38,525 nucleotides of DNA from Promethearchaeota archaeon (GTDB lineage Archaea; Asgardarchaeota; Lokiarchaeia; Sigyniarchaeales; SOKP01). The notes beneath the pieces are model-generated. The model saw only the letters and a program-made list of their open reading frames with translations. It had not been told where the DNA came from and did no database searches. The position numbers were made by a program, and so were the translations under genes. The DNA is taken from the NCBI GenBank assembly GCA_016930515.1, contig JAFGGO010000050.1, positions 1-38,525 on the forward strand, given 5' to 3'. Below are positions 27,844 through 35,607 of this stretch, piece by piece (positions within the stretch are counted from its first letter, which is position 1; each line of letters starts with the position of its first letter).

Positions 27844-28797
27844 TTGCTGATTTCGAAAGAAATTAAAAAAGTGCTATTTGTTGGACTTGACGACGGTGGA
27901 AAGACTTCGATAATGTATGTCCTCAATAAAAAGTTCAGCTTGCTCAGATCAATCAAACCAACGAAGAAAGCGAAAATAACTGCTCAAAAATTCTTACTGT
28001 TAGGTTTAGAGATTATTAACTGGGATTTGGGTGGACAAGAAAATTTCAGGAATATCTACCTTCAAAGATACGAGAAGTATTTTTCGGATGTTCAGACGAT
28101 CTTTTATGTTATCGATATTCAAGACACGCGCAGGTTTGAGGAAGCCAAGGAATATTTAAAATCGATAGTTGAAATTATGGTTCGCATGAAGCAAAAAGAC
28201 GCACATTTTTTAGTCTTGCTCCATAAATGTGATCCAGATATAAGAAACAACGAAGATACTGTGAAAAATTTAAAAGTTTTGCAAGAGCAAATTGAAAAAG
28301 CAAATCCTAATACTTCCTTTTTGTTTTACACGACATCGATATACGACGAACCGAGTTTGTACAAACCATTCTCAGACGGTGTAATTGCTTTTTCACATAA
28401 AGCGAAAATGGTAGAAACCTTGCTAAAGGATTATATGGGCAAATCCTTCAATAGTGCAACGGTCATTCTAGACGAACATAATTTTATCATTGCGAGCAGG
28501 GCAACAAAAACCGAATATGAGACTATATGTGAAGAGATCGCTCCGAGATTGACTCCAAGTATGGAAAAACTAGAAACACTAAACATTGATACGATTGATA
28601 TAGTTATTCGTTTTACATCTATCTTTCCCGAGTCTGACGAACATAGGGAGGGTATGGTGTTTTTAAAAAAAATAGACCTTAAGGAAGAACGGCTTTACTT
28701 GGTAGCTTTATGCTTGAACCATAAAGTCAAGACGAGATCCTATGACCTCCTTCCGCAGCTCGCGAGCAATCTAAGGGAACTTTTAGAAAGCTATTAA
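27844..28797 (+). CDS. Rag/Gtr-like small GTPase with C-terminal roadblock-like domain
   Basis: G1 GLDDGGKTS, G2 PT, G3 WDLGGQ, G4 HKCD (His as in Rag GTPases), G5 TSIYD; ~130-aa C-terminal alpha/beta extension. Confidence 0.85.
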   Translation: MLISKEIKKVLFVGLDDGGKTSIMYVLNKKFSLLRSIKPTKKAKITAQKFLLLGLEIINWDLGGQENFRNIYLQRYEKYFSDVQTIFYVIDIQDTRRFEEAKEYLKSIVEIMVRMKQKDAHFLVLLHKCDPDIRNNEDTVKNLKVLQEQIEKANPNTSFLFYTTSIYDEPSLYKPFSDGVIAFSHKAKMVETLLKDYMGKSFNSATVILDEHNFIIASRATKTEYETICEEIAPRLTPSMEKLETLNIDTIDIVIRFTSIFPESDEHREGMVFLKKIDLKEERLYLVALCLNHKVKTRSYDLLPQLASNLRELLESY

Positions 28798-28971: not shown

Positions 28972-30165
28972 TTGAAAATGATTGCAAAACAAATGCAATA
29001 TGTTGGACCAAGAGCCATATTTGATCCCAATTTTGTTCCTCCAAAATTACTATATCGAAAAAAGGAAGAGGTTTCGATATATTCAATGTTGCGCGATTCA
29101 CTATCAGACAATTACAACATGAACATGTTATTTCAGGGGATAGACGGGATTGGAAAGAAAGTTCTCGTCCAAAAAGTAGTCAGGGACTTGATAAGCAAGG
29201 TCGAAGATGTTACTTCCGTAAGTAAATTCTGCGTAGACTGCAGGGAAAAAACTTTTGAAGACGTCCTTATTTCAATGCTCTCACAAATCTTAAAAAAATT
29301 GGATTTAAGCTTGGAAATGAACGCGGTACTTAATTCGACACCTTCTCGTCTTTGGACTCTTTATAAACTTGCGTGCAAAAAACTAGGCCGTACATCGCTC
29401 GTGATTCTTAATAACATCGAATATTTGAAACCAGAAAAATACAAAAAATTTCTCTCGAGCGCCAAGGAAATTAATGTGTCCTTAATTTCAACCGTAAATC
29501 GGATCTTGAGACCTTCCACAATCGACCTCCTCCCCGAATTTGATTTTAAAAAAAAACTTCGATTTTTCTCGTATAAAGAACTTAACTCAATTTTAAGACA
29601 AAGAGCGCGCTTAACATTTGCAAAGGAAATTGATAGAGATGTTATCGACTTTATTGCAGATGTTACCTTTGAACACCATATCCCTGTACCTGGAAAGGGG
29701 ATTGAAGTGTTTCGAGAATGTTATCCCCTTCTTAAATCAAATTCGACCATTGATTTAAACGAAATGCTTGATGTTTGCAAAAATCAGTTCGATTCCTTCC
29801 GAATGTCAGACGACTTTGGAGTACTTTCCTATCTCGCGGAAGAAGATCTCTTGACAATAATATTTCTTGATAATTTATCCAATCATTTCCTTAAAAAAGC
29901 AAAATTTTATGTTTCTTCTACCGAACTCCGGGAACTATACGATATTTCGTGTGAATCACTCGAATATAGGAAGAACACGCCCGAATACGATTCGTTAATT
30001 CATAAATTCGTAAATGTGGGGATTTTAAGCCTTTCTCGAAAACCACGCATCTCTCCCAATTACTCATTTAAAACAAGAAATGCGGTAGATAACGACTCGT
30101 ATTTCATGATAATTTGTCCACATCAGCTCAAATCCATCGTTGATGTCATCTTCGGAAAATTATAG
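28972..30165 (+). CDS. Cdc6/Orc1-family AAA+ protein with degenerate ATPase motifs
   Basis: FDPNFVPPKLLYRKKE N-terminal signature. Walker A GIDGIGKK, Walker B ILNNIE, FSYKELNSILRQRA. C-terminal winged helix (LRELYDISCE...FVNVGIL). Confidence 0.8.
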   Translation: MKMIAKQMQYVGPRAIFDPNFVPPKLLYRKKEEVSIYSMLRDSLSDNYNMNMLFQGIDGIGKKVLVQKVVRDLISKVEDVTSVSKFCVDCREKTFEDVLISMLSQILKKLDLSLEMNAVLNSTPSRLWTLYKLACKKLGRTSLVILNNIEYLKPEKYKKFLSSAKEINVSLISTVNRILRPSTIDLLPEFDFKKKLRFFSYKELNSILRQRARLTFAKEIDRDVIDFIADVTFEHHIPVPGKGIEVFRECYPLLKSNSTIDLNEMLDVCKNQFDSFRMSDDFGVLSYLAEEDLLTIIFLDNLSNHFLKKAKFYVSSTELRELYDISCESLEYRKNTPEYDSLIHKFVNVGILSLSRKPRISPNYSFKTRNAVDNDSYFMIICPHQLKSIVDVIFGKL

Positions 30166-30270
30166 CAATTGATATTTCTCTTCATAATATTTTTCCTAAA
30201 ACTTTTTTTAAAAAATCTGCTATATTCATATTATCATAATGGACTAAGTGTTGAAAAATGGAGGCTTATT

Positions 30271-33200
30271 TTGACCTGGATTTCTAAAATCTCCATGTCG
30301 GGATTCAAATCGTTTGGAGAAAGAACGGTAACAATCAGACTTTCGAGCGGATTTACTTGTATCGTTGGTCCGAACGGAGCAGGAAAGTCAAATATCATTG
30401 ACGCCCTTTGTTTTTGCTTGGGTAGGTTAAGTAAAAAAACAATGAGGGCAAAAAGTTTAGAAGACCTCATCTTTGCGGGAGCGAAGGGAAAAAACCCATC
30501 CAATCGAGCATCTGTTACTATTTATTTTGATAATAGGGAAAAACTATTTCCAGGAGAAGGTGATTCTTTTAGCATAACGAGGACGATCAAGAGAGGTGGT
30601 GGTGGTGGCTACAAGATGAACGGTGAAAAAGTCACTCGCCAGCAGATTCTCAACGCCTTAGCAGCAGCGAACATTGACCCTGAAGGAAGCAACCAATTTG
30701 TCCTCCAAGGTAAGATCGTCGAGCTCACGCATATGAATGCCGAAGATAGACGCAAGTTTATCGAGGAACTCATTGGACTTCAAAAATACGACGATATGAA
30801 GAATGCAACCATGAAAGAACTGGAAAAGGCGGAGCGAGATCTCGGTCAATTTGAAGCCATATTCAAGGAAGTTTCAACCCAACTCCAAAAAGTCGAAAAA
30901 GAAAAAAACGATGCTCTTGCTTGGAAGGAATTAGAAGAAAAAATAAATTTATATAACGCTCAACTTATCGCTATAAAGATCACTAAGCTCAGGAAAGAAG
31001 AAGACGAGCTCGAAGCCAGTATCGAGGAATCTCAAAAAGTTATTGAAGAACTCGAGGAAAAAATCACGCATCAAGAGGATCTCATGAAGCAAGAATCCTT
31101 AGTAATGGATGGCATCCAAAGTACCATTACTGAAAAGGAAAACGAGCGAGAACAGATAAAAGAAAGCATAACGCAGATAAAAACGCAATTATCCTCCAAT
31201 AAAACAACATTGAGTTACTCCAAAAACACCATTGAAAAACTCACGCAGGACATTGAAAACCTGAAAAGTAAGCAAATTGTACTTGAAGAGGGTCAAACTC
31301 TTGATGGGCTTATTGAAAACGCTTCTAAGGAAAACGAAAATATTGAAAATAACATCGAAACCGCTAAACAAGAAATAGAGAAGAGCCAGGAAAGCCAAGC
31401 GGAGTTTGATTCAAAGATCAAGAGTAGCGAAAGCGATAAGTCCAACTTGAAAGCAGAAATCTCGAAGATAAAACAGAAAATATCATCAAACAACGCTCAG
31501 ATTAAAATTCTAAGGGAAAATATCGTCAAGAACGAGTCAAAAAGAGAGAAACTCCAACAAGAGCTCGATCGACTCAAGGGAGATGCCGAGGGGATTGACG
31601 AGGCAATAAAGCAGGCAAGAGATGTTGAAAACTCTATTAGAAAAAATATAGATGATCTAAACAAGAAGGTATCAGAAGAAAATCAGAAACAAAAAGACCT
31701 TGAACGAAAAATAAACGATACACAGGAAAAAAAAAACCAACTGGCAAGAAAGATCTCAGACTTTCAAGCTACGCTTTCTTCTGCGAACACGGAAGTAAAA
31801 ATGAACCTCGACCGGATTGAGAACCTTAACAAGCAAAAAGCGTCCATTGAGGCGAAGATAAAGGACTTAAGTAAGGGAAAAGATTCCGAAGAGGCGTTAA
31901 AAGCCTTACTCAAGGAGAAGGAAGCGATAACATCCGTACTGGGGGGGTTGAAACAAAGGGCTAAAGAAGAAGACTCCGTTTTTAGGAAAAACGAGAAAGA
32001 ACTGGAACTCAAGGAGATGCAACAGTCAGCATTGATTACTGAAATCAACGATCATAAGGGTAAGATTAATAACATTAATACCGAACTCAAATTGCTCAAG
32101 AAAGAATACACGGGGCTAGAACGAGAAAAAAAAGACTTAGAGATGAAGGTTGACTCAATTAGTAAGACGAATACGACTATTGAATCGGAATTTGAAACGC
32201 TCAATATTAAAAAGGACAACATCACTCGAAGAATAGAGGAATTAAATGAGGAAAAGAATGGAGTGCTAAAGCGCATTGAAAGCTCCGAAGAGGATTACGA
32301 GCGCAACAAGGACGACATTTCTGGCGTCCTTCAAATCCTTAACATGCTTACTCAGAACATCAGCATTTCCGTTGACTCCATCAAGGGGGACATACAACTT
32401 TCAAATGCCGAATCTATAGAAGTATCAGCGGGAAAGTTCCGAGATTTTATTAAGGACATCATCGAGATTATGAGAACTTTACAGGATGTAGATGTTGACG
32501 CCAAGGAAGGGGATGAGTCTGGAATGCTCCTTAATTCCATTGTAACTACTTTAAATATATTTACGGAAAACGCAGATGGCACCATTGAACAGCTCATTGA
32601 GAAGGTTAAACTTTCGTCTGATGTTGCCATTCAAGAATCTACTTCAAAATTCGACACGTTCGTTCAGGACTTGATGGATATCTTACAAACAGTTCCTATT
32701 TCGCTCAAGAAGTTAACATTGTCGAAAGGCCAGGAACTTTACAAGCAACTCGAGGAGATCTCTGATAGCATCAAGTCGCAATCGGACGATCTGACTGAAG
32801 TCGAAAAGAAAAGGACCGAACTTGACATCAAGCTCAAGCACGACACGGAGAATCTTTTAGCGTATAAAAGAAGGCTTGAAGAAATCGACAAGAGGATACA
32901 AGACCTCAACGCAAAGATCGCTAAGTCGGATGATGAAATAAACGAGAGGGCAGAAAGCGTCAATAATAAGCAGGAGGACGTCCAAAAGTTCGAGAACGAT
33001 GTCATGGCCCTCAAGAAAACGAAAGAAGAATATTGGGAGAAAATCTCTAAAATCCAAGAAGAAATCGACGCCAAACAAAAGGAATTCGATGAATTCCAAA
33101 ACAAACTCCAAGAACTTAAGGGTATTCAAAATCTATTCGAACGAATTGACGAGATTAACGAAAATATTGGTGCTCTCAATACCACGATAGAGGAAAAGAA

Positions 33201-34773
33201 AAAAGCCGTACTGGACATCGAAACTAGCTCTAAAAATGTAGAAGCAGAGCAAGAGACGCTTCAAAAAGAGATTAATGGTTTGAATTCTGATAAAGAACAA
33301 TTCTGGGTCGTGACAGAGGATCTGCGAAAGAAAAAGGAAGGAGAAAGCAAGAAATTAGAAGAAGTTATCGACCGCATCCGTGGCTTGGAAAACGTGATGA
33401 GGATCATCACGTCTATCGAGGATTTAACGAAAGAAAACGAGGAAGCAAGTGCTAACATACAAACGAGTGATAAGGAGATCGAAACTCTCAACGCTCAGGT
33501 AGACGGCATTCAAGCTAAGGTTGATGAGGTACAGGGCGTAATCGACTCTTTATCAGAAGAAAAATCGAAAGAAATCGATGTTCAAAAAGGCGCTCAAAAG
33601 AAACTCAATGACCTTAATAAGGAACTCCAGAAATCTCAAAGCAGGCTCAACGAGCTAAACAAGAACAAGGAACGACAACAACAAATAGTTACGTTGGGTG
33701 AGGAAATAAAGGCAACTGAGAAAAGCCTTGAAAATGTCGTCCAGGAAATAGAATCCTTGGAAGGAGGGCTGAGTGAAAAGAATACCGTCTTGGACGAAAA
33801 GCAAGAGGAAATTAATAAATACCTCGCAGAAAAGGACGAATCGTGGAAGAAGCAAAAGCAATACCAAAAAGCGTACACCGACCTAAAAAGCGACCTATCG
33901 CTCGAAAGTTCCAAATTAAACAATTTTGAGTCTAAAAAAATCATTTGCAACGACCAAATTGAGGCCCTGTTCCATCGATCCAAGGATTACGGTGCCATAC
34001 CACAAGTGACCGAGGACCTTACCGAGGAAGGGCTCCAGTCGGACATTGAATTATCAACGAAAAAGAAGAAAGCGCTCGAACCGGTCAACCTCAAGGCGAT
34101 AGATCAGTACGATGTGGTCAAGGAACGGTTTGACGAGATCGACATGCGTCGTCAGACCATACAACGAGAACGAAAAGCTATATTAGACGCTATCGAGAAG
34201 ATCGAGCTTGAAAAGACGAGATCGTTCATGAAAGCCTATCACGAGATCAATCGGGAGTTTTCGCGCATTTTTCAGAAGCTCTCGCCTGGTGGATCGGCAA
34301 AAATGATTCTCGATAGACCCGATTCGCCGTTCGAAGGTGGAATTTCGATTGAAGCTCGACCCAGAGGTAAGAAAATCAGTTCGCTTGAAATTTTAAGTGG
34401 TGGTGAGAAAACGCTCGTGGCGCTCTCGTTCATATTTGCCGTGCAGGAGTTTTACCCCGCTCCGTTTTACGTAATGGATGAAATTGATGCGGCCTTGGAC
34501 GGTCCCAACGTGCATCGCGTCTCAACCGTGATTCAGGAGTTTTCTAGTCAAGCACAGTTCCTTGTCATCAGTCACCGTGAAGAAAACATCGTCAACTCCG
34601 ACAGAATTTACGGAGTCGCCATGCAACAAAGTGGCATTACCGACATCTTCAGTGTCGATCTGGAACAAGAAGCAAAACGCCTCCTTGAGATAGAAGAGGA
34701 TCAGAAAGAAGGGGAAGAGGAAAGTGAAGATGAAACTTCAGACGATAATGAGGATAACCTTAGCGATGAATAA
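30271..34773 (+). CDS. smc: SMC-family ATPase, unusually long (~1500 aa) and lacking a canonical hinge
   Basis: GFKSF, Walker A GPNGAGKSN, Q-loop VLQG, PVNLKAI, signature LSGGEK, Walker B/D-loop MDEIDAALD and H-loop ISH. Start placed at TTG 30271 after GGAGG (30260-30264). Confidence 0.92.
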   Translation: MTWISKISMSGFKSFGERTVTIRLSSGFTCIVGPNGAGKSNIIDALCFCLGRLSKKTMRAKSLEDLIFAGAKGKNPSNRASVTIYFDNREKLFPGEGDSFSITRTIKRGGGGGYKMNGEKVTRQQILNALAAANIDPEGSNQFVLQGKIVELTHMNAEDRRKFIEELIGLQKYDDMKNATMKELEKAERDLGQFEAIFKEVSTQLQKVEKEKNDALAWKELEEKINLYNAQLIAIKITKLRKEEDELEASIEESQKVIEELEEKITHQEDLMKQESLVMDGIQSTITEKENEREQIKESITQIKTQLSSNKTTLSYSKNTIEKLTQDIENLKSKQIVLEEGQTLDGLIENASKENENIENNIETAKQEIEKSQESQAEFDSKIKSSESDKSNLKAEISKIKQKISSNNAQIKILRENIVKNESKREKLQQELDRLKGDAEGIDEAIKQARDVENSIRKNIDDLNKKVSEENQKQKDLERKINDTQEKKNQLARKISDFQATLSSANTEVKMNLDRIENLNKQKASIEAKIKDLSKGKDSEEALKALLKEKEAITSVLGGLKQRAKEEDSVFRKNEKELELKEMQQSALITEINDHKGKINNINTELKLLKKEYTGLEREKKDLEMKVDSISKTNTTIESEFETLNIKKDNITRRIEELNEEKNGVLKRIESSEEDYERNKDDISGVLQILNMLTQNISISVDSIKGDIQLSNAESIEVSAGKFRDFIKDIIEIMRTLQDVDVDAKEGDESGMLLNSIVTTLNIFTENADGTIEQLIEKVKLSSDVAIQESTSKFDTFVQDLMDILQTVPISLKKLTLSKGQELYKQLEEISDSIKSQSDDLTEVEKKRTELDIKLKHDTENLLAYKRRLEEIDKRIQDLNAKIAKSDDEINERAESVNNKQEDVQKFENDVMALKKTKEEYWEKISKIQEEIDAKQKEFDEFQNKLQELKGIQNLFERIDEINENIGALNTTIEEKKKAVLDIETSSKNVEAEQETLQKEINGLNSDKEQFWVVTEDLRKKKEGESKKLEEVIDRIRGLENVMRIITSIEDLTKENEEASANIQTSDKEIETLNAQVDGIQAKVDEVQGVIDSLSEEKSKEIDVQKGAQKKLNDLNKELQKSQSRLNELNKNKERQQQIVTLGEEIKATEKSLENVVQEIESLEGGLSEKNTVLDEKQEEINKYLAEKDESWKKQKQYQKAYTDLKSDLSLESSKLNNFESKKIICNDQIEALFHRSKDYGAIPQVTEDLTEEGLQSDIELSTKKKKALEPVNLKAIDQYDVVKERFDEIDMRRQTIQRERKAILDAIEKIELEKTRSFMKAYHEINREFSRIFQKLSPGGSAKMILDRPDSPFEGGISIEARPRGKKISSLEILSGGEKTLVALSFIFAVQEFYPAPFYVMDEIDAALDGPNVHRVSTVIQEFSSQAQFLVISHREENIVNSDRIYGVAMQQSGITDIFSVDLEQEAKRLLEIEEDQKEGEEESEDETSDDNEDNLSDE
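32338..32694 (+). repeat. Tandem protein-level repeat (two 48-aa units, 71-aa period) at the SMC apex
   Basis: LNMLTQN...LS....I..S..KF..F..D...I..T at 32338 aligns without gaps to LNIFTEN...LS....I..S..KF..F..D...I..T at 32551; 14 of 48 residues identical. Confidence 0.8.
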
Positions 34774-35151: not shown

Positions 35152-35607
35152 TTGTTAAGACAAGTATTAATTCAAGAGTGGGCGCGAATGGGAGGTACAT
35201 CTCGTAAAAAACACGAAAGAAAACATGAGAAAAGAATTAATAAAGAAAAACAAAAGGATAAGAAATTTATTTACGGGAGGAATGAGATGTGGCGTAAATA
35301 TTTCGACTGGTATTACATTGAAACCTTAAACAAAGGCTTGGGAGTGAGTAAAAAAAATAGTTACGTGGATTCTAACGGGTATTTACGATGGAAGGCCAAC
35401 GATCGCTTGGTCCATCGCGATATCGCCAAACAATGCATTTATAATAAAAAATCGTTTGCCCTACCATTCTCTTGCTACGAAGTTCACCATAAAAACAGAA
35501 ACGAGCTCGATAACAATCTGAGTAACCTCGAAATCCTAAACCCCGAAGAGCACGCTCTCGTTCACGCAGGGGAAAAAAAAAAAGAAAAAACAAAAAAAGC
35601 ACGATAA
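35152..35607 (+). CDS. HNH endonuclease-family protein
   Basis: NGYLR...LVHRDIA...EVHHKNRNELDNNLSNLEIL..EEH motif typical of HNH_3-type domains. Confidence 0.85.
   Translation: MLRQVLIQEWARMGGTSRKKHERKHEKRINKEKQKDKKFIYGRNEMWRKYFDWYYIETLNKGLGVSKKNSYVDSNGYLRWKANDRLVHRDIAKQCIYNKKSFALPFSCYEVHHKNRNELDNNLSNLEILNPEEHALVHAGEKKKEKTKKAR

What the first reader, a model, noticed from the sequence alone, without database searches (positions are those of the whole stretch)
30271..34773. Hinge-less giant SMC: canonical heads, but the apex is a tandem helical repeat
All ABC-type head motifs and PVNLKAI match true Smc (condensin/cohesin type). At the gene midpoint (~32520), however, there is no alpha/beta hinge with the GX6GX3GG motif and no Rad50 CxxC zinc hook. 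Instead there are two amphipathic helical units (32338 and 32551; 71-aa period; 14/48 identical) joined by an acidic loop (DVDVDAKEGDES). At ~1500 aa it is about 300 aa longer than a typical prokaryotic Smc, and no scpA/scpB lies next to it. Inference: a distinct SMC class with a novel dimerisation or apex domain, perhaps with a non-ring or tether-like role.
Basis: partly seen in the sequence, partly recalled or inferred. Interest (0 to 1): 0.8.

Follow-up and report, generated by a model that had tools for sequence, protein, structure and literature searches.

The report
Hingeless long-armed SMC of Lokiarchaeales
This Asgard archaeon's main chromosome-folding ATPase (SMC) has lost the usual hinge and ends in a conserved helical hairpin on arms about 1.5 times the normal length; it keeps its own kleisin and ScpB partners and, in most relatives, is the only condensin-type SMC left.

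Summary
Window 30271-34773 (+) encodes a 1500-aa SMC with intact ATPase heads. It has no SMC_hinge match and no CxxC. A real internal duplication (aa 683-737 vs 754-808, z 9.9) flanks a variable acidic loop. AlphaFold2, run on two family alignments, folds the centre as one long helical hairpin, not a globular hinge.

The protein belongs to a length-invariant family of about 1480 aa. I found it in 60/68 and 7/7 sampled genomes of two sister Asgard families (one order, Lokiarchaeia-type) and almost nowhere else.

The head tree puts the family inside canonical archaeal SMC, apart from SMC5/6-like and Rad50-like proteins. Relative to hinged SMCs, aa ~515-1048 replace the hinge with extra coiled coil plus the tip.

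In relatives the gene heads an operon: SMC, a divergent kleisin, then a long ScpB. This genome keeps orthologues of both partners on contig C27. Some genera also keep a hinged SMC with a short ScpB. This genome and most relatives have lost that pair.

The most likely reading is a third, lineage-specific SMC-kleisin-kite complex whose tip replaces the hinge as the dimerisation module. Dimerisation is inferred, not shown. I found no description of it in the papers searched. It is a new variant of a known kind.

The parts
30271..34773 (+). Gene for the 1500-aa hingeless long-arm SMC (TTG start; stop included)
   Evidence: ORF. SMC_N 140 bits. TIGR02168 595.7 bits, over its cut-off of 567.35. The family alignment starts at this residue.
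30260..30264 (+). GGAGG Shine-Dalgarno-like site 6 nt before the TTG start. An A/T-rich TATA-like run lies at about 30203-30215.
   Evidence: Read directly from the sequence. Function is inferred.
30271..30765 (+). N-terminal half of the ATPase head (aa 1-165): Walker A at aa 33, Q-loop at aa 145
   Evidence: Column conservation 0.92 across 60 family members.
30778..32307 (+). N-arm helix (aa 170-679, about 510 aa). It contains repeats of about 97/195 aa.
   Evidence: Residues 1-514 are collinear with aa 1-519 of a hinged SMC. AF2 gives a continuous helix for aa 561-738. The lag-195 self-similarity exceeds all shuffles.
31813..33414 (+). Central segment (aa ~515-1048) that stands where hinged SMCs have the hinge and hinge-proximal coil (about 240 aa)
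   Evidence: blastp against hinged SMCs of G144, G213 and G006: only aa 1-514 and aa 1049/1115-1473 align.
32308..32775 (+). Conserved apex (aa 680-835): two helices and a loop, with buried-domain-like composition
   Evidence: Conservation is 0.82-0.87 against 0.73-0.75 for the arms. Conserved large-hydrophobic positions are 38-39% against 23-26%. Charged residues are 22-26% against 40%. AF2 gives a hairpin in two runs.
32317..32481 (+). Apex repeat 1 (aa 683-737), the ascending helix
   Evidence: Internal duplication, z 9.9.
32485..32520 (+). Acidic tip loop DVDVDAKEGDES (aa 739-750); variable in the family
   Evidence: AF2 loop with pLDDT about 50-57.
32530..32694 (+). Apex repeat 2 (aa 754-808), the descending helix
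32776..34230 (+). C-arm helix (aa 836-1320, about 485 aa) with 90-aa repeats in its apex-proximal part
   Evidence: Self-similarity at lags 90 and 180 exceeds all shuffles. Block-to-block z is 4.5-4.9 for aa 840-1110.
34243..34665 (+). C-terminal half of the ATPase head (aa 1325-1465): signature, Walker B/D-loop, H-loop. PVNLKAI lies just upstream at aa 1271.
   Evidence: Conservation 0.95.
34690..34770 (+). Acidic C-terminal tail (aa ~1474-1500); longer here than in most homologues
   Evidence: Most homologues are 1483-1484 aa.
28972..30165 (+). Divergent Orc1/Cdc6-like gene directly upstream. The linkage is conserved in at least one other genome. Membership of the system is not shown.
   Evidence: TIGR02928 54 bits, below cut-off. 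It is 46% identical to the gene upstream of the SMC in GCA_020343655.1. It is not upstream in G213, G144, G147 or G040.

Best explanation
The gene encodes the SMC subunit of a lineage-specific third SMC-kleisin-kite complex of one Asgard order (Lokiarchaeia/Promethearchaeia-type genomes).

Origin. It descends from the canonical archaeal SMC. The heads are intact and very conserved, so it is an active ABC ATPase. The hinge and hinge-proximal coil have been replaced by about 530 aa. These are extra coiled coil, built partly by tandem duplication of coiled-coil modules, capped by a conserved helical hairpin tip that arose by duplicating one helix. Each arm is about 500 aa, which is roughly 75 nm by my estimate at about 0.15 nm per residue. 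Canonical arms are about 330-345 aa and 47-49 nm.

Partners. The protein works with its own divergent ScpA-like kleisin and a long-form ScpB. In relatives these are the next two genes. Here they lie on contig C27.

Role in this genome. This genome, like most of its family, has lost the hinged SMC and its short ScpB. The long SMC is therefore the only condensin-type SMC, beside an SMC5/6-like operon.

Inferred step. The tip replaces the hinge as the constitutive dimerisation module. Most likely two hairpins pack into a four-helix bundle. The complex would then still form a kleisin-closed ring or rod that entraps or extrudes DNA.
For: SHOWN
- Canonical head motifs, and SMC_N and TIGR02168 scores over their cut-offs.
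- No hinge HMM match in the protein.
- Two AF2 runs on 59-sequence alignments give one long helical hairpin (pLDDT 85.9 and 81.0).
- Foldseek finds only generic long hairpins: MCP cytoplasmic domain, Rad50, dynein stalk, MukB elbow.
- The apex profile has no PDB sequence match. It hits only 41 of 1.84 billion representative proteins.
- The family is nearly free of indels and about 1480 aa long.
- The apex is present in 60/68 genomes of family f1 and 7/7 of f2. It is found in 0/2 genomes of the other families of the class. In the rest of the phylum there are only three matches, and two of them look like stray contigs.
- Head tree: the long-SMC clade has 100/100 support. It sits in the canonical Asgard SMC group near the same-order hinged SMCs (87/89), apart from SMC5/6-like proteins (100/100). 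Its internal topology follows the family split.
- The operon SMC, 329-366-aa protein, long ScpB is present in G213, G144, G147, G040 and GCA_020343655.1.
- By my hand count, the long ScpB lies within 10 kb of the SMC apex in 30 of 44 genomes.
- The C27 pair is orthologous to the operon pair: 65.6% and 52.8% identity to G144, with the same tRNA-synthetase neighbour.
- The 348-aa protein is kleisin-like. Orthologues hit ScpA at E 5.5e-4 and 1.8e-3, and Rad21_Rec8 at 0.006. Collinear PDB profile hits are ScpA-N at 0.014 and Scc1-C/ScpA-C at 0.1-0.4. JGI names homologues as kleisin family.
- Strong-hinge SMC plus short ScpB occur only in some genera (g4, g7, g8, g9, part of f2). They were not found in g1, g2, g3, g5 or g6, including ten genomes rated 100% complete.

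INFERRED
- Tip dimerisation. The apex helices carry 38-39% conserved large hydrophobics in ##.##.## patterns and about half the charge of the arms. That is more burial than a two-helix hairpin needs.
- AF2 is less confident in the apex than in the less conserved arms.
- In B. subtilis the hinge can be functionally replaced by an unrelated dimeriser, the Rad50 zinc hook (PMC5344682).
Against: - No direct evidence shows that the tip self-associates.
- The same composition could reflect binding of another protein or a fold-back in cis.
- The kleisin assignment rests on sub-threshold but mutually consistent hits.
- The sister group of the long SMC is unresolved, so the timing of the duplication is uncertain.
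- In this genome and its genus the SMC and the kleisin-ScpB pair lie on different contigs. Co-regulation here is therefore not shown.
- The genome is a 94% complete MAG. Loss of the hinged SMC in this one genome leans on the pattern in relatives.
Confidence: 0.7

Rival explanations
1. The tip is a docking site rather than a dimeriser. It would bind a partner protein or DNA, as chemoreceptor hairpin tips bind CheA/CheW. The two SMCs would be held together only by heads, kleisin and zipped arms.
For: The best fold match is a chemoreceptor cytoplasmic hairpin, whose conserved tip is a partner-binding site (that function is my background knowledge). The same apex module sits at the N-terminus of a second, non-SMC family of about 920-1180 aa with a lysine-rich tail. 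This would fit heterotypic tip-to-tip docking. Hinge-less B. subtilis Smc still dimerises through its arms (statement in PMC5526789).
Against: In the sample the second family was found only in f2 genomes. This genome has only one apex match. No partner gene is conserved beside the SMC other than kleisin and ScpB. Docking and dimerisation are not mutually exclusive.
Confidence: 0.2
2. It is a DNA-repair tether or an anti-plasmid/anti-virus SMC-like system of the Rad50/SbcC, RecN or Wadjet/Lamassu type, not a chromosome organiser.
For: It lacks a hinge, as Rad50 and RecN do. In this window a SIR2-TPR gene and an HNH gene lie just downstream.
Against: - No CxxC hook.
- Rad50, RecN and ASRP models score far below their cut-offs, whereas TIGR02168 passes.
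- A separate Rad50/SbcC-like 902-aa gene exists on C152.
- The gene is nearly universal and vertically inherited in the order, and its heads evolve slowly.
- Its conserved neighbours are kleisin, ScpB and a tRNA synthetase, with no nuclease.
- The SIR2 and HNH neighbours are absent from the relatives examined.
Confidence: 0.04
3. The apex is a highly diverged SMC hinge, or the gene is an assembly or annotation artefact.
For: It occupies the hinge position. The atlas feature search lists a cluster in which 55% of members carry SMC_hinge, but only at score 0.79, which is within the chance range.
Against: - All-helical prediction in two runs.
- No hinge HMM signal even at E<=10.
- The internal helix duplication explains its origin.
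- Intact ORFs of the same length occur in more than 60 genomes, including closed or long contigs.
Confidence: 0.03

Closest known systems
Canonical prokaryotic Smc-ScpAB (archaeal/bacterial condensin; TIGR02168/02169)
   Same: Head motifs. Heads and head-proximal arms are collinear (aa 1-514 and 1049-1473; 31-44% identity). Dedicated kleisin and ScpB-type kite in an operon. The head phylogeny places it inside canonical Asgard SMCs.
   Different: No hinge domain. About 530 aa of coiled coil plus a helical tip stand in its place. Arms are about 500 aa instead of about 335. Arms carry internal repeats. ScpB has an N-terminal extension. The kleisin is too divergent for Pfam ScpA to pass its cut-off, and some members carry a SAP/HeH motif.
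Engineered B. subtilis Smc with the hinge replaced by the P. furiosus Rad50 zinc hook (Burmann et al. 2017, PMC5344682)
   Same: An SMC-ScpAB with an unrelated apex dimeriser in place of the hinge. That paper concludes that the nature of the dimerisation domain is 'surprisingly uncritical'.
   Different: This one is natural, fixed across an order, has a metal-free all-helical tip and has lengthened arms. Dimerisation here has not been tested.
'Hinge-less' SMC cluster from ocean metagenomes, assigned to Actinobacteria (PMC12153180)
   Same: SMC-like heads and an antiparallel coiled coil without a hinge or CxxC.
   Different: That cluster is bacterial, and no conserved apex module or partner genes are reported in the passages I read. 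No sequences were at hand to compare. Here the lineage, partners, paralogy and replacement history are resolved.
Rad50/SbcC and RecN
   Same: SMC-superfamily ATPases whose coiled coils end in a non-hinge apex.
   Different: No zinc hook and no Mre11/SbcD partner. Model scores are far below cut-off (Rad50 models 45-105 bits against cut-offs of 700-1087; RecN 43 against 408).
Archaeal SMC5/6-related SMC (Yoshinaga & Inagaki 2021, PMC8665677; bioRxiv 10.1101/2024.01.07.573240)
   Same: A second SMC paralogue with its own operon in Asgard and TACK archaea.
   Different: In this genome that paralogue is a different gene (C9, 1142 aa, weak hinge of 28.9 bits). It forms a separate clade with 100/100 support. 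The long hingeless SMC is a further paralogue that those papers do not mention in the text I searched.
Methyl-accepting chemoreceptor cytoplasmic domain (PDB 2ch7)
   Same: Best Foldseek hit (E 4.5e-4). It is a long helical hairpin with a highly conserved tip that forms a four-helix bundle in the dimer (the bundle is my background knowledge).
   Different: Analogy only: 15% identity and no sequence-profile relation.

Membership tests
SMC proper (Smc of Smc-ScpAB) | Split ABC ATPase head with Walker A, Q-loop, signature motif, Walker B/D-loop and H-loop | tested here: met
   All motifs located. Pfam SMC_N 140.2 bits against a cut-off of 40.
SMC proper (Smc of Smc-ScpAB) | Whole-protein score over the curated NCBIfam equivalog cut-off | tested here: inconclusive
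   TIGR02168 scores 595.7, over its cut-off of 567.35. TIGR02169 scores 646.6, under its cut-off of 729.4. The matches come in 4-5 stretches.
SMC proper (Smc of Smc-ScpAB) | Long intramolecular antiparallel coiled-coil arm | tested here: met
   AF2 hairpin for aa 560-940, with pLDDT 90-96 in the arm parts. The rest of the arms is inferred from collinearity with hinged SMCs.
SMC proper (Smc of Smc-ScpAB) | Central alpha/beta hinge dimerisation domain (Pfam PF06470) | tested here: not met
   No match at E<=1 on the protein or at E<=10 on the apex. The six-frame search of the whole genome hits only C9. The predicted fold is all-helical.
SMC proper (Smc of Smc-ScpAB) | Dedicated kleisin (ScpA) and kite (ScpB) partners | tested here: met
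   Operon in relatives. Orthologues on C27 here. ScpB scores 110.7 bits. Kleisin support is sub-threshold but collinear. Physical binding was not tested.
SMC proper (Smc of Smc-ScpAB) | Heads group with canonical SMC in a phylogeny | tested here: met
   The sister relation within canonical Asgard SMCs is unresolved.
Rad50/SbcC | CxxC zinc hook at the coiled-coil apex; Mre11/SbcD partner | tested here: not met
   No CxxC, and no Cys between aa 50 and 1225. Rad50 models are far below cut-off. No nuclease neighbour.
RecN | About 550 aa, short coiled coil, TIGR00634 | tested here: not met
   43 bits against a cut-off of 407.85. Length is 1500 aa.
MukB/MksB/JetC | MukB-type head and hinge; MukEF/MksEF/JetAB partners | tested here: not met
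   No such family among the Pfam hits at E<=1. The only MukB fold hit is the coiled-coil elbow, a generic hairpin. The partners are ScpA/ScpB-type.
Archaea-specific SMC-related protein (ASRP) / arcadin-4 | NCBIfam NF045487 / NF053563 over cut-off | tested here: not met
   148.1 bits against 300, and 25.2 bits against 860.
SMC5/6-related archaeal SMC | Heads group with the SMC5/6-like clade | tested here: not met
   A separate clade with 100/100 support. This genome's own SMC5/6-like gene is on C9.

The most novel reading that the evidence does not exclude
The helical tip is a previously unrecognised SMC dimerisation or gate module. It has naturally replaced the hinge in the only condensin-type complex of most Lokiarchaeales. 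It is also shared with a second protein family that has an N-terminal apex module and a basic tail, and that family would dock onto the SMC tip. If so, an Asgard lineage runs a kleisin-closed SMC machine with arms of about 75 nm and no hinge. That would show in nature that the hinge is dispensable for SMC function.
Probability: 0.4. Interest if true: 0.78.

Novelty: new variant of a known kind. Interest (0 to 1): 0.64.

Why it matters
The hinge is treated as a defining and functionally important part of every true SMC: it dimerises the protein, binds DNA and may act as a gate. Here an entire order of Asgard archaea, the closest prokaryotic relatives of eukaryotes, carries an SMC-kleisin-kite complex without one. 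Most of its genera have discarded the hinged version.

This is a natural counterpart to the engineered zinc-hook Smc of B. subtilis. It offers a way to separate what the hinge does from what the arms and heads do. It also departs from the narrow arm-length distribution reported for SMCs.

Surveys that collect SMCs by their hinge, such as the pipeline described in PMC5344682, would miss this family.

The family adds a further duplication, followed by differential loss, to current accounts of SMC complex evolution in Asgard archaea. Cultured members of this class exist, so Hi-C, ChIP and biochemistry should be feasible.

Tried and rejected
- Complex prediction on two copies of the apex alignment (aa 640-870) gave no verdict (ipSAE 0.00 in both runs, controls not run). 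It is no evidence either way.
- Foldseek of the 381-aa model against PDB gave only generic long hairpins.
- The apex profile against PDB sequences gave only chance-level coiled-coil hits with E>0.1.
- The atlas feature search on the apex gave only unnamed clusters below 0.9.
- The GX6GX3GG regular expression is uninformative, because it also fails on genuine hinged SMCs.
- My first head tree wrongly included two 'short apex' proteins as if they were SMCs. blastp showed that their apex module is N-terminal and that they have no SMC heads. I rebuilt the tree without them. Their placement should be ignored.
- I tested whether the end of contig C100 overlaps the start of C27, which would make the operon merely interrupted. 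No overlap was found, so the question stays open.
- The Orc1-like upstream gene is not conserved upstream in four relatives but is in a fifth. It is not counted as part of the system.
- Apex matches outside the order look like mis-binned contigs: one 8.6-kb contig in G193, and three fragments in G205 (72% complete). I did not take them as evidence of a wider range.

Full report
WHAT IS THERE

The ORF at 30169-34773 (+) most likely starts at the TTG at 30271. A GGAGG lies 6 nt upstream, and most homologues align from that residue. The product is 1500 aa.

It carries every SMC head motif: Walker A at aa 33, Q-loop at 145, PVNLKAI at 1271, signature LSGGEK at 1375, Walker B/D-loop at 1403 and H-loop at 1433. 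Pfam gives SMC_N at 140 bits spanning aa 4-1457 and no SMC_hinge at E<=1. The apex alone gives nothing relevant at E<=10. NCBIfam SMC_prok_B scores 595.7, over its cut-off. SMC_prok_A scores 646.6, under its cut-off. Rad50, RecN, ASRP and arcadin-4 models are far below theirs. There is no CxxC, and no cysteine at all between aa 50 and 1225.

THE APEX

Residues 683-737 align ungapped with residues 754-808. The offset is 71 aa, with 14/55 identical. The score is 86 against 29.4 +/- 5.7 in 2000 shuffles. The units are joined by DVDVDAKEGDES (aa 739-750).

In an alignment of 59 family members, the two helices are the most conserved part of the protein outside the heads. Long invariant runs occur on both helices, while the loop varies.

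AlphaFold2 was run on aa 560-940 and again on aa 640-870, each with the 59-sequence alignment. Both runs give a single long helical hairpin with a 10-residue loop (mean pLDDT 85.9 and 81.0). Confidence is lower in the apex (about 69-82) than in the flanking arms (90-96).

Foldseek against PDB returns only generic long hairpins. The best hit is a chemoreceptor cytoplasmic domain, followed by Rad50, dynein stalks and the MukB elbow. The apex profile matches nothing in PDB sequences. Among 1.84 billion representative proteins it matches only 41. The centre is thus neither a divergent hinge nor any known apex domain.

The composition of the apex resembles a buried domain rather than a two-stranded coiled coil. 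Conserved large hydrophobics make up 38-39% of positions against 23-26% in the arms, in ##.##.## patterns. Charged residues make up 22-26% against 40%.

RELATION TO HINGED SMCs

Against hinged SMCs of related genomes, only aa 1-514 and aa 1049/1115-1473 align, collinear with the heads and arms. About 534 residues therefore stand where a hinged SMC has about 240. The segment comprises an N-arm extension, the tip and a C-arm extension.

The arms carry internal repeats. The N-arm shows lags 195 and 97. The C-arm shows lags 90 and 180. All exceed every shuffle. The repeats are also present in a 43%-identical member of the sister family and absent from hinged SMCs. Lengthening by tandem duplication of coiled-coil modules is the simplest reading. 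Each arm is about 500 aa, compared with the 344 aa and about 47-49 nm reported for B. subtilis Smc (PMC5344682, PMC5526789).

FAMILY AND RANGE

The central region finds 73 proteins, nearly all 1470-1485 aa. They are 46-67% identical in the centre and are labelled Lokiarchaeia, Promethearchaeota or other Asgard MAGs. The full-length alignment is almost free of indels.

In 300 sampled genomes of the phylum, the apex profile is found as follows:
- 60/68 genomes of the window's family (f1)
- 7/7 genomes of the sister family (f2, same order)
- 0/2 genomes of other families of the class
- three further genomes elsewhere: an 8.6-kb contig in G193, three fragments in a 72%-complete bin (G205), and a 23-bit match with stop codons in G023

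A maximum-likelihood tree of the head halves puts the long SMCs in one clade (100/100). That clade sits inside the canonical Asgard SMC group, near the hinged SMCs of the same order (87/89). It is apart from SMC5/6-like proteins (100/100) and from the Rad50-like outgroup. Its inner topology follows the family split. Its branches are shorter than those of the hinged paralogues in the same genomes.

PARTNERS

The genome nevertheless has one ScpB (C27, 110.7-112.3 bits) preceded by a 348-aa gene.

In G213, G144, G147, G040 and GCA_020343655.1, the long SMC is followed directly by a 269-366-aa gene and then a 291-332-aa ScpB. In four of the five, a class I tRNA-synthetase gene on the other strand comes next; G213 has an unrelated 381-aa gene there. 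The C27 pair is orthologous to these: 65.6% and 52.8% identity to G144, with the same synthetase neighbour at 69% identity.

By my hand count from the tables family genomes have both features located:
- In 30 the long ScpB lies within 10 kb of the SMC apex, usually 3.6-4.0 kb away.
- In 2 it lies farther off on the same contig.
- In 12 it lies on another contig, often at a contig end.

The middle gene is a divergent kleisin, on these grounds:
- Orthologues hit Pfam ScpA at E 5.5e-4 and 1.8e-3, and Rad21_Rec8 at 0.006.
- A five-sequence profile hits ScpA-N (E 0.014) with its N-terminal part, and Scc1-C/ScpA-C chains (E 0.1-0.4) with its C-terminal part. Six of the seven hits are kleisins.
- JGI annotates many homologues as kleisin family.

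PARALOGY AND LOSS

Hinged SMCs of about 1175-1220 aa with strong hinge scores (96-136 bits) are the rule in other Asgard families. Within the order, some genera (g4, g7, g8, g9 and part of f2, including the closed genome G213) have both a strong-hinge SMC followed directly by a short ScpB (about 190-204 aa, 57-73 bits) and the long SMC operon.

In g1 (this genome), g2, g3, g5 and g6, only a weak hinge match (E 1e-5 to 1e-11) is found. In this genome that match belongs to the SMC5/6-like gene. No short ScpB is found either. This holds for ten genomes rated 100% complete.

In this genome, a search with the nearest hinged SMC returns only the window gene. The one hinge match is the 1142-aa SMC5/6-like gene on C9, which scores only 203 bits on SMC_prok_B.

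The published picture has two SMC complexes in Asgard archaea: canonical and SMC5/6-related (PMC8665677; bioRxiv 10.1101/2024.01.07.573240). I found no mention there of a hingeless third complex or of loss of the hinged one. Three further full-text searches also found none. The only 'hinge-less SMC' reported in the library is a marine actinobacterial cluster (PMC12153180).

MECHANISM

Shown:
- An intact SMC ATPase.
- A helical hairpin instead of a hinge.
- Dedicated kleisin and kite genes.
- Vertical inheritance under strong constraint.

Inferred:
- The tip is the dimerisation module, probably a four-helix bundle of two hairpins, so the complex still closes into a ring or rod.

The inference rests on three points:
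- The tip has more conserved hydrophobic surface than a two-helix hairpin needs.
- The monomer model has lower confidence in the tip than in the arms, despite the tip's higher conservation.
- B. subtilis Smc works with an unrelated dimeriser in place of its hinge (PMC5344682).

The main rival is that the tip is a docking site. That idea gains some weight from a second family of about 920-1180 aa, which carries the same module at its N-terminus and a lysine-rich tail. The two readings can both be true.

Repair-tether, defence-system, degenerate-hinge and artefact readings are each contradicted by several results. These are set out under the rival explanations.

VERDICT

The 'distinct SMC class with a new apex' reading is supported. 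The 'no kleisin, perhaps non-ring' reading is not.

I rate this a new variant of a known kind, with interest 0.64. The sequences are already in databases, annotated as SMC or AAA ATPase. The hinge replacement, the dedicated partner set and the loss of the hinged complex in most of the order do not appear in the literature I could search.

Noticed in passing
G213:C1:3819996-3823121 (L019:497-3622, -) and G089 (L028:378-3455, -); also P0197, P0199, P0200, P0203, P0205, P0210, P0216: A second, non-SMC protein family of about 920-1180 aa carries the same apex module at its N-terminus (aa ~37-233). In the G213 member this is followed by helical and globular parts and a lysine-rich tail resembling histone H1. 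No Pfam or PDB match. In the sample it was found only in the sister family f2. It could be a tip-docking partner of the long SMC.
   Followed up: partly
window 30778-32307 and 32776-34230: The SMC arms contain internal repeats: about 97/195 aa in the N-arm (aa ~272-660) and 90 aa in the C-arm (aa ~840-1110). Both exceed all shuffles, are conserved in a 43%-identical relative and are absent from hinged SMCs. This agrees with an earlier first-reader note on this stretch.
   Followed up: yes
window 28972-30165: A divergent Orc1/Cdc6-like gene (TIGR02928 54 bits, below cut-off) lies directly upstream of the SMC. The same arrangement, including a Gtr1/RagA-type GTPase gene further upstream, occurs in GCA_020343655.1 (46% identity for the Orc1-like gene; the two GTPases share Pfam families but were not successfully aligned). 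Four other relatives lack it.
   Followed up: partly
G000:C27:2160-4085 (L017): The kleisin (348 aa) and long ScpB (285 aa) of this complex sit at the start of contig C27. The window is the whole contig C100 and ends 3.7 kb after the SMC. The two contigs could abut, with an HNH and SIR2-TPR insertion splitting the operon. No sequence overlap was found. In two other genomes of the same genus where both genes were located (G168, G312), they are also on different contigs.
   Followed up: partly
L017:2160-3206 N-terminus; L046:7820-8824; P0083, P0084, P0087: Some kleisins of this complex carry an N-terminal SAP/HeH/Ish1-like motif (Pfam PF10281 at E 7e-5 in the G144 orthologue; PF02037 and PF12949 precomputed in others). 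This would be a DNA-binding add-on that is unusual for ScpA.
   Followed up: no
G000:C9:411-6336 (L015): A putative SMC5/6-like operon: a 423-aa gene, a 1142-aa SMC with a weak hinge (28.9 bits), then 217-aa and 175-aa genes. The small genes have no Pfam match. They could be a divergent kleisin and kites.
   Followed up: partly
window 35830-38430 (-) and 35152-35607 (+): An 866-aa SIR2_2 plus TPR protein with a weak UFC1-like match (E 3e-4), and a small HNH protein, lie just downstream of the SMC. This looks like a defence-type island and is absent at this position in the relatives examined.
   Followed up: no
window 27844-28797: A Gtr1/RagA- and Arf-like small GTPase (100 bits), an Asgard 'eukaryotic signature' type gene. 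A gene with the same Pfam families lies two genes upstream of the SMC in GCA_020343655.1.
   Followed up: no
G193:C70 (L030) and G205 (three contigs): Long-SMC apex matches occur in genomes of other Asgard families. They sit on an 8.6-kb contig (1 of 21 genomes of that family) and on three fragments in a 72%-complete bin. These are probably mis-binned contigs rather than a wider range or gene transfer.
   Followed up: partly
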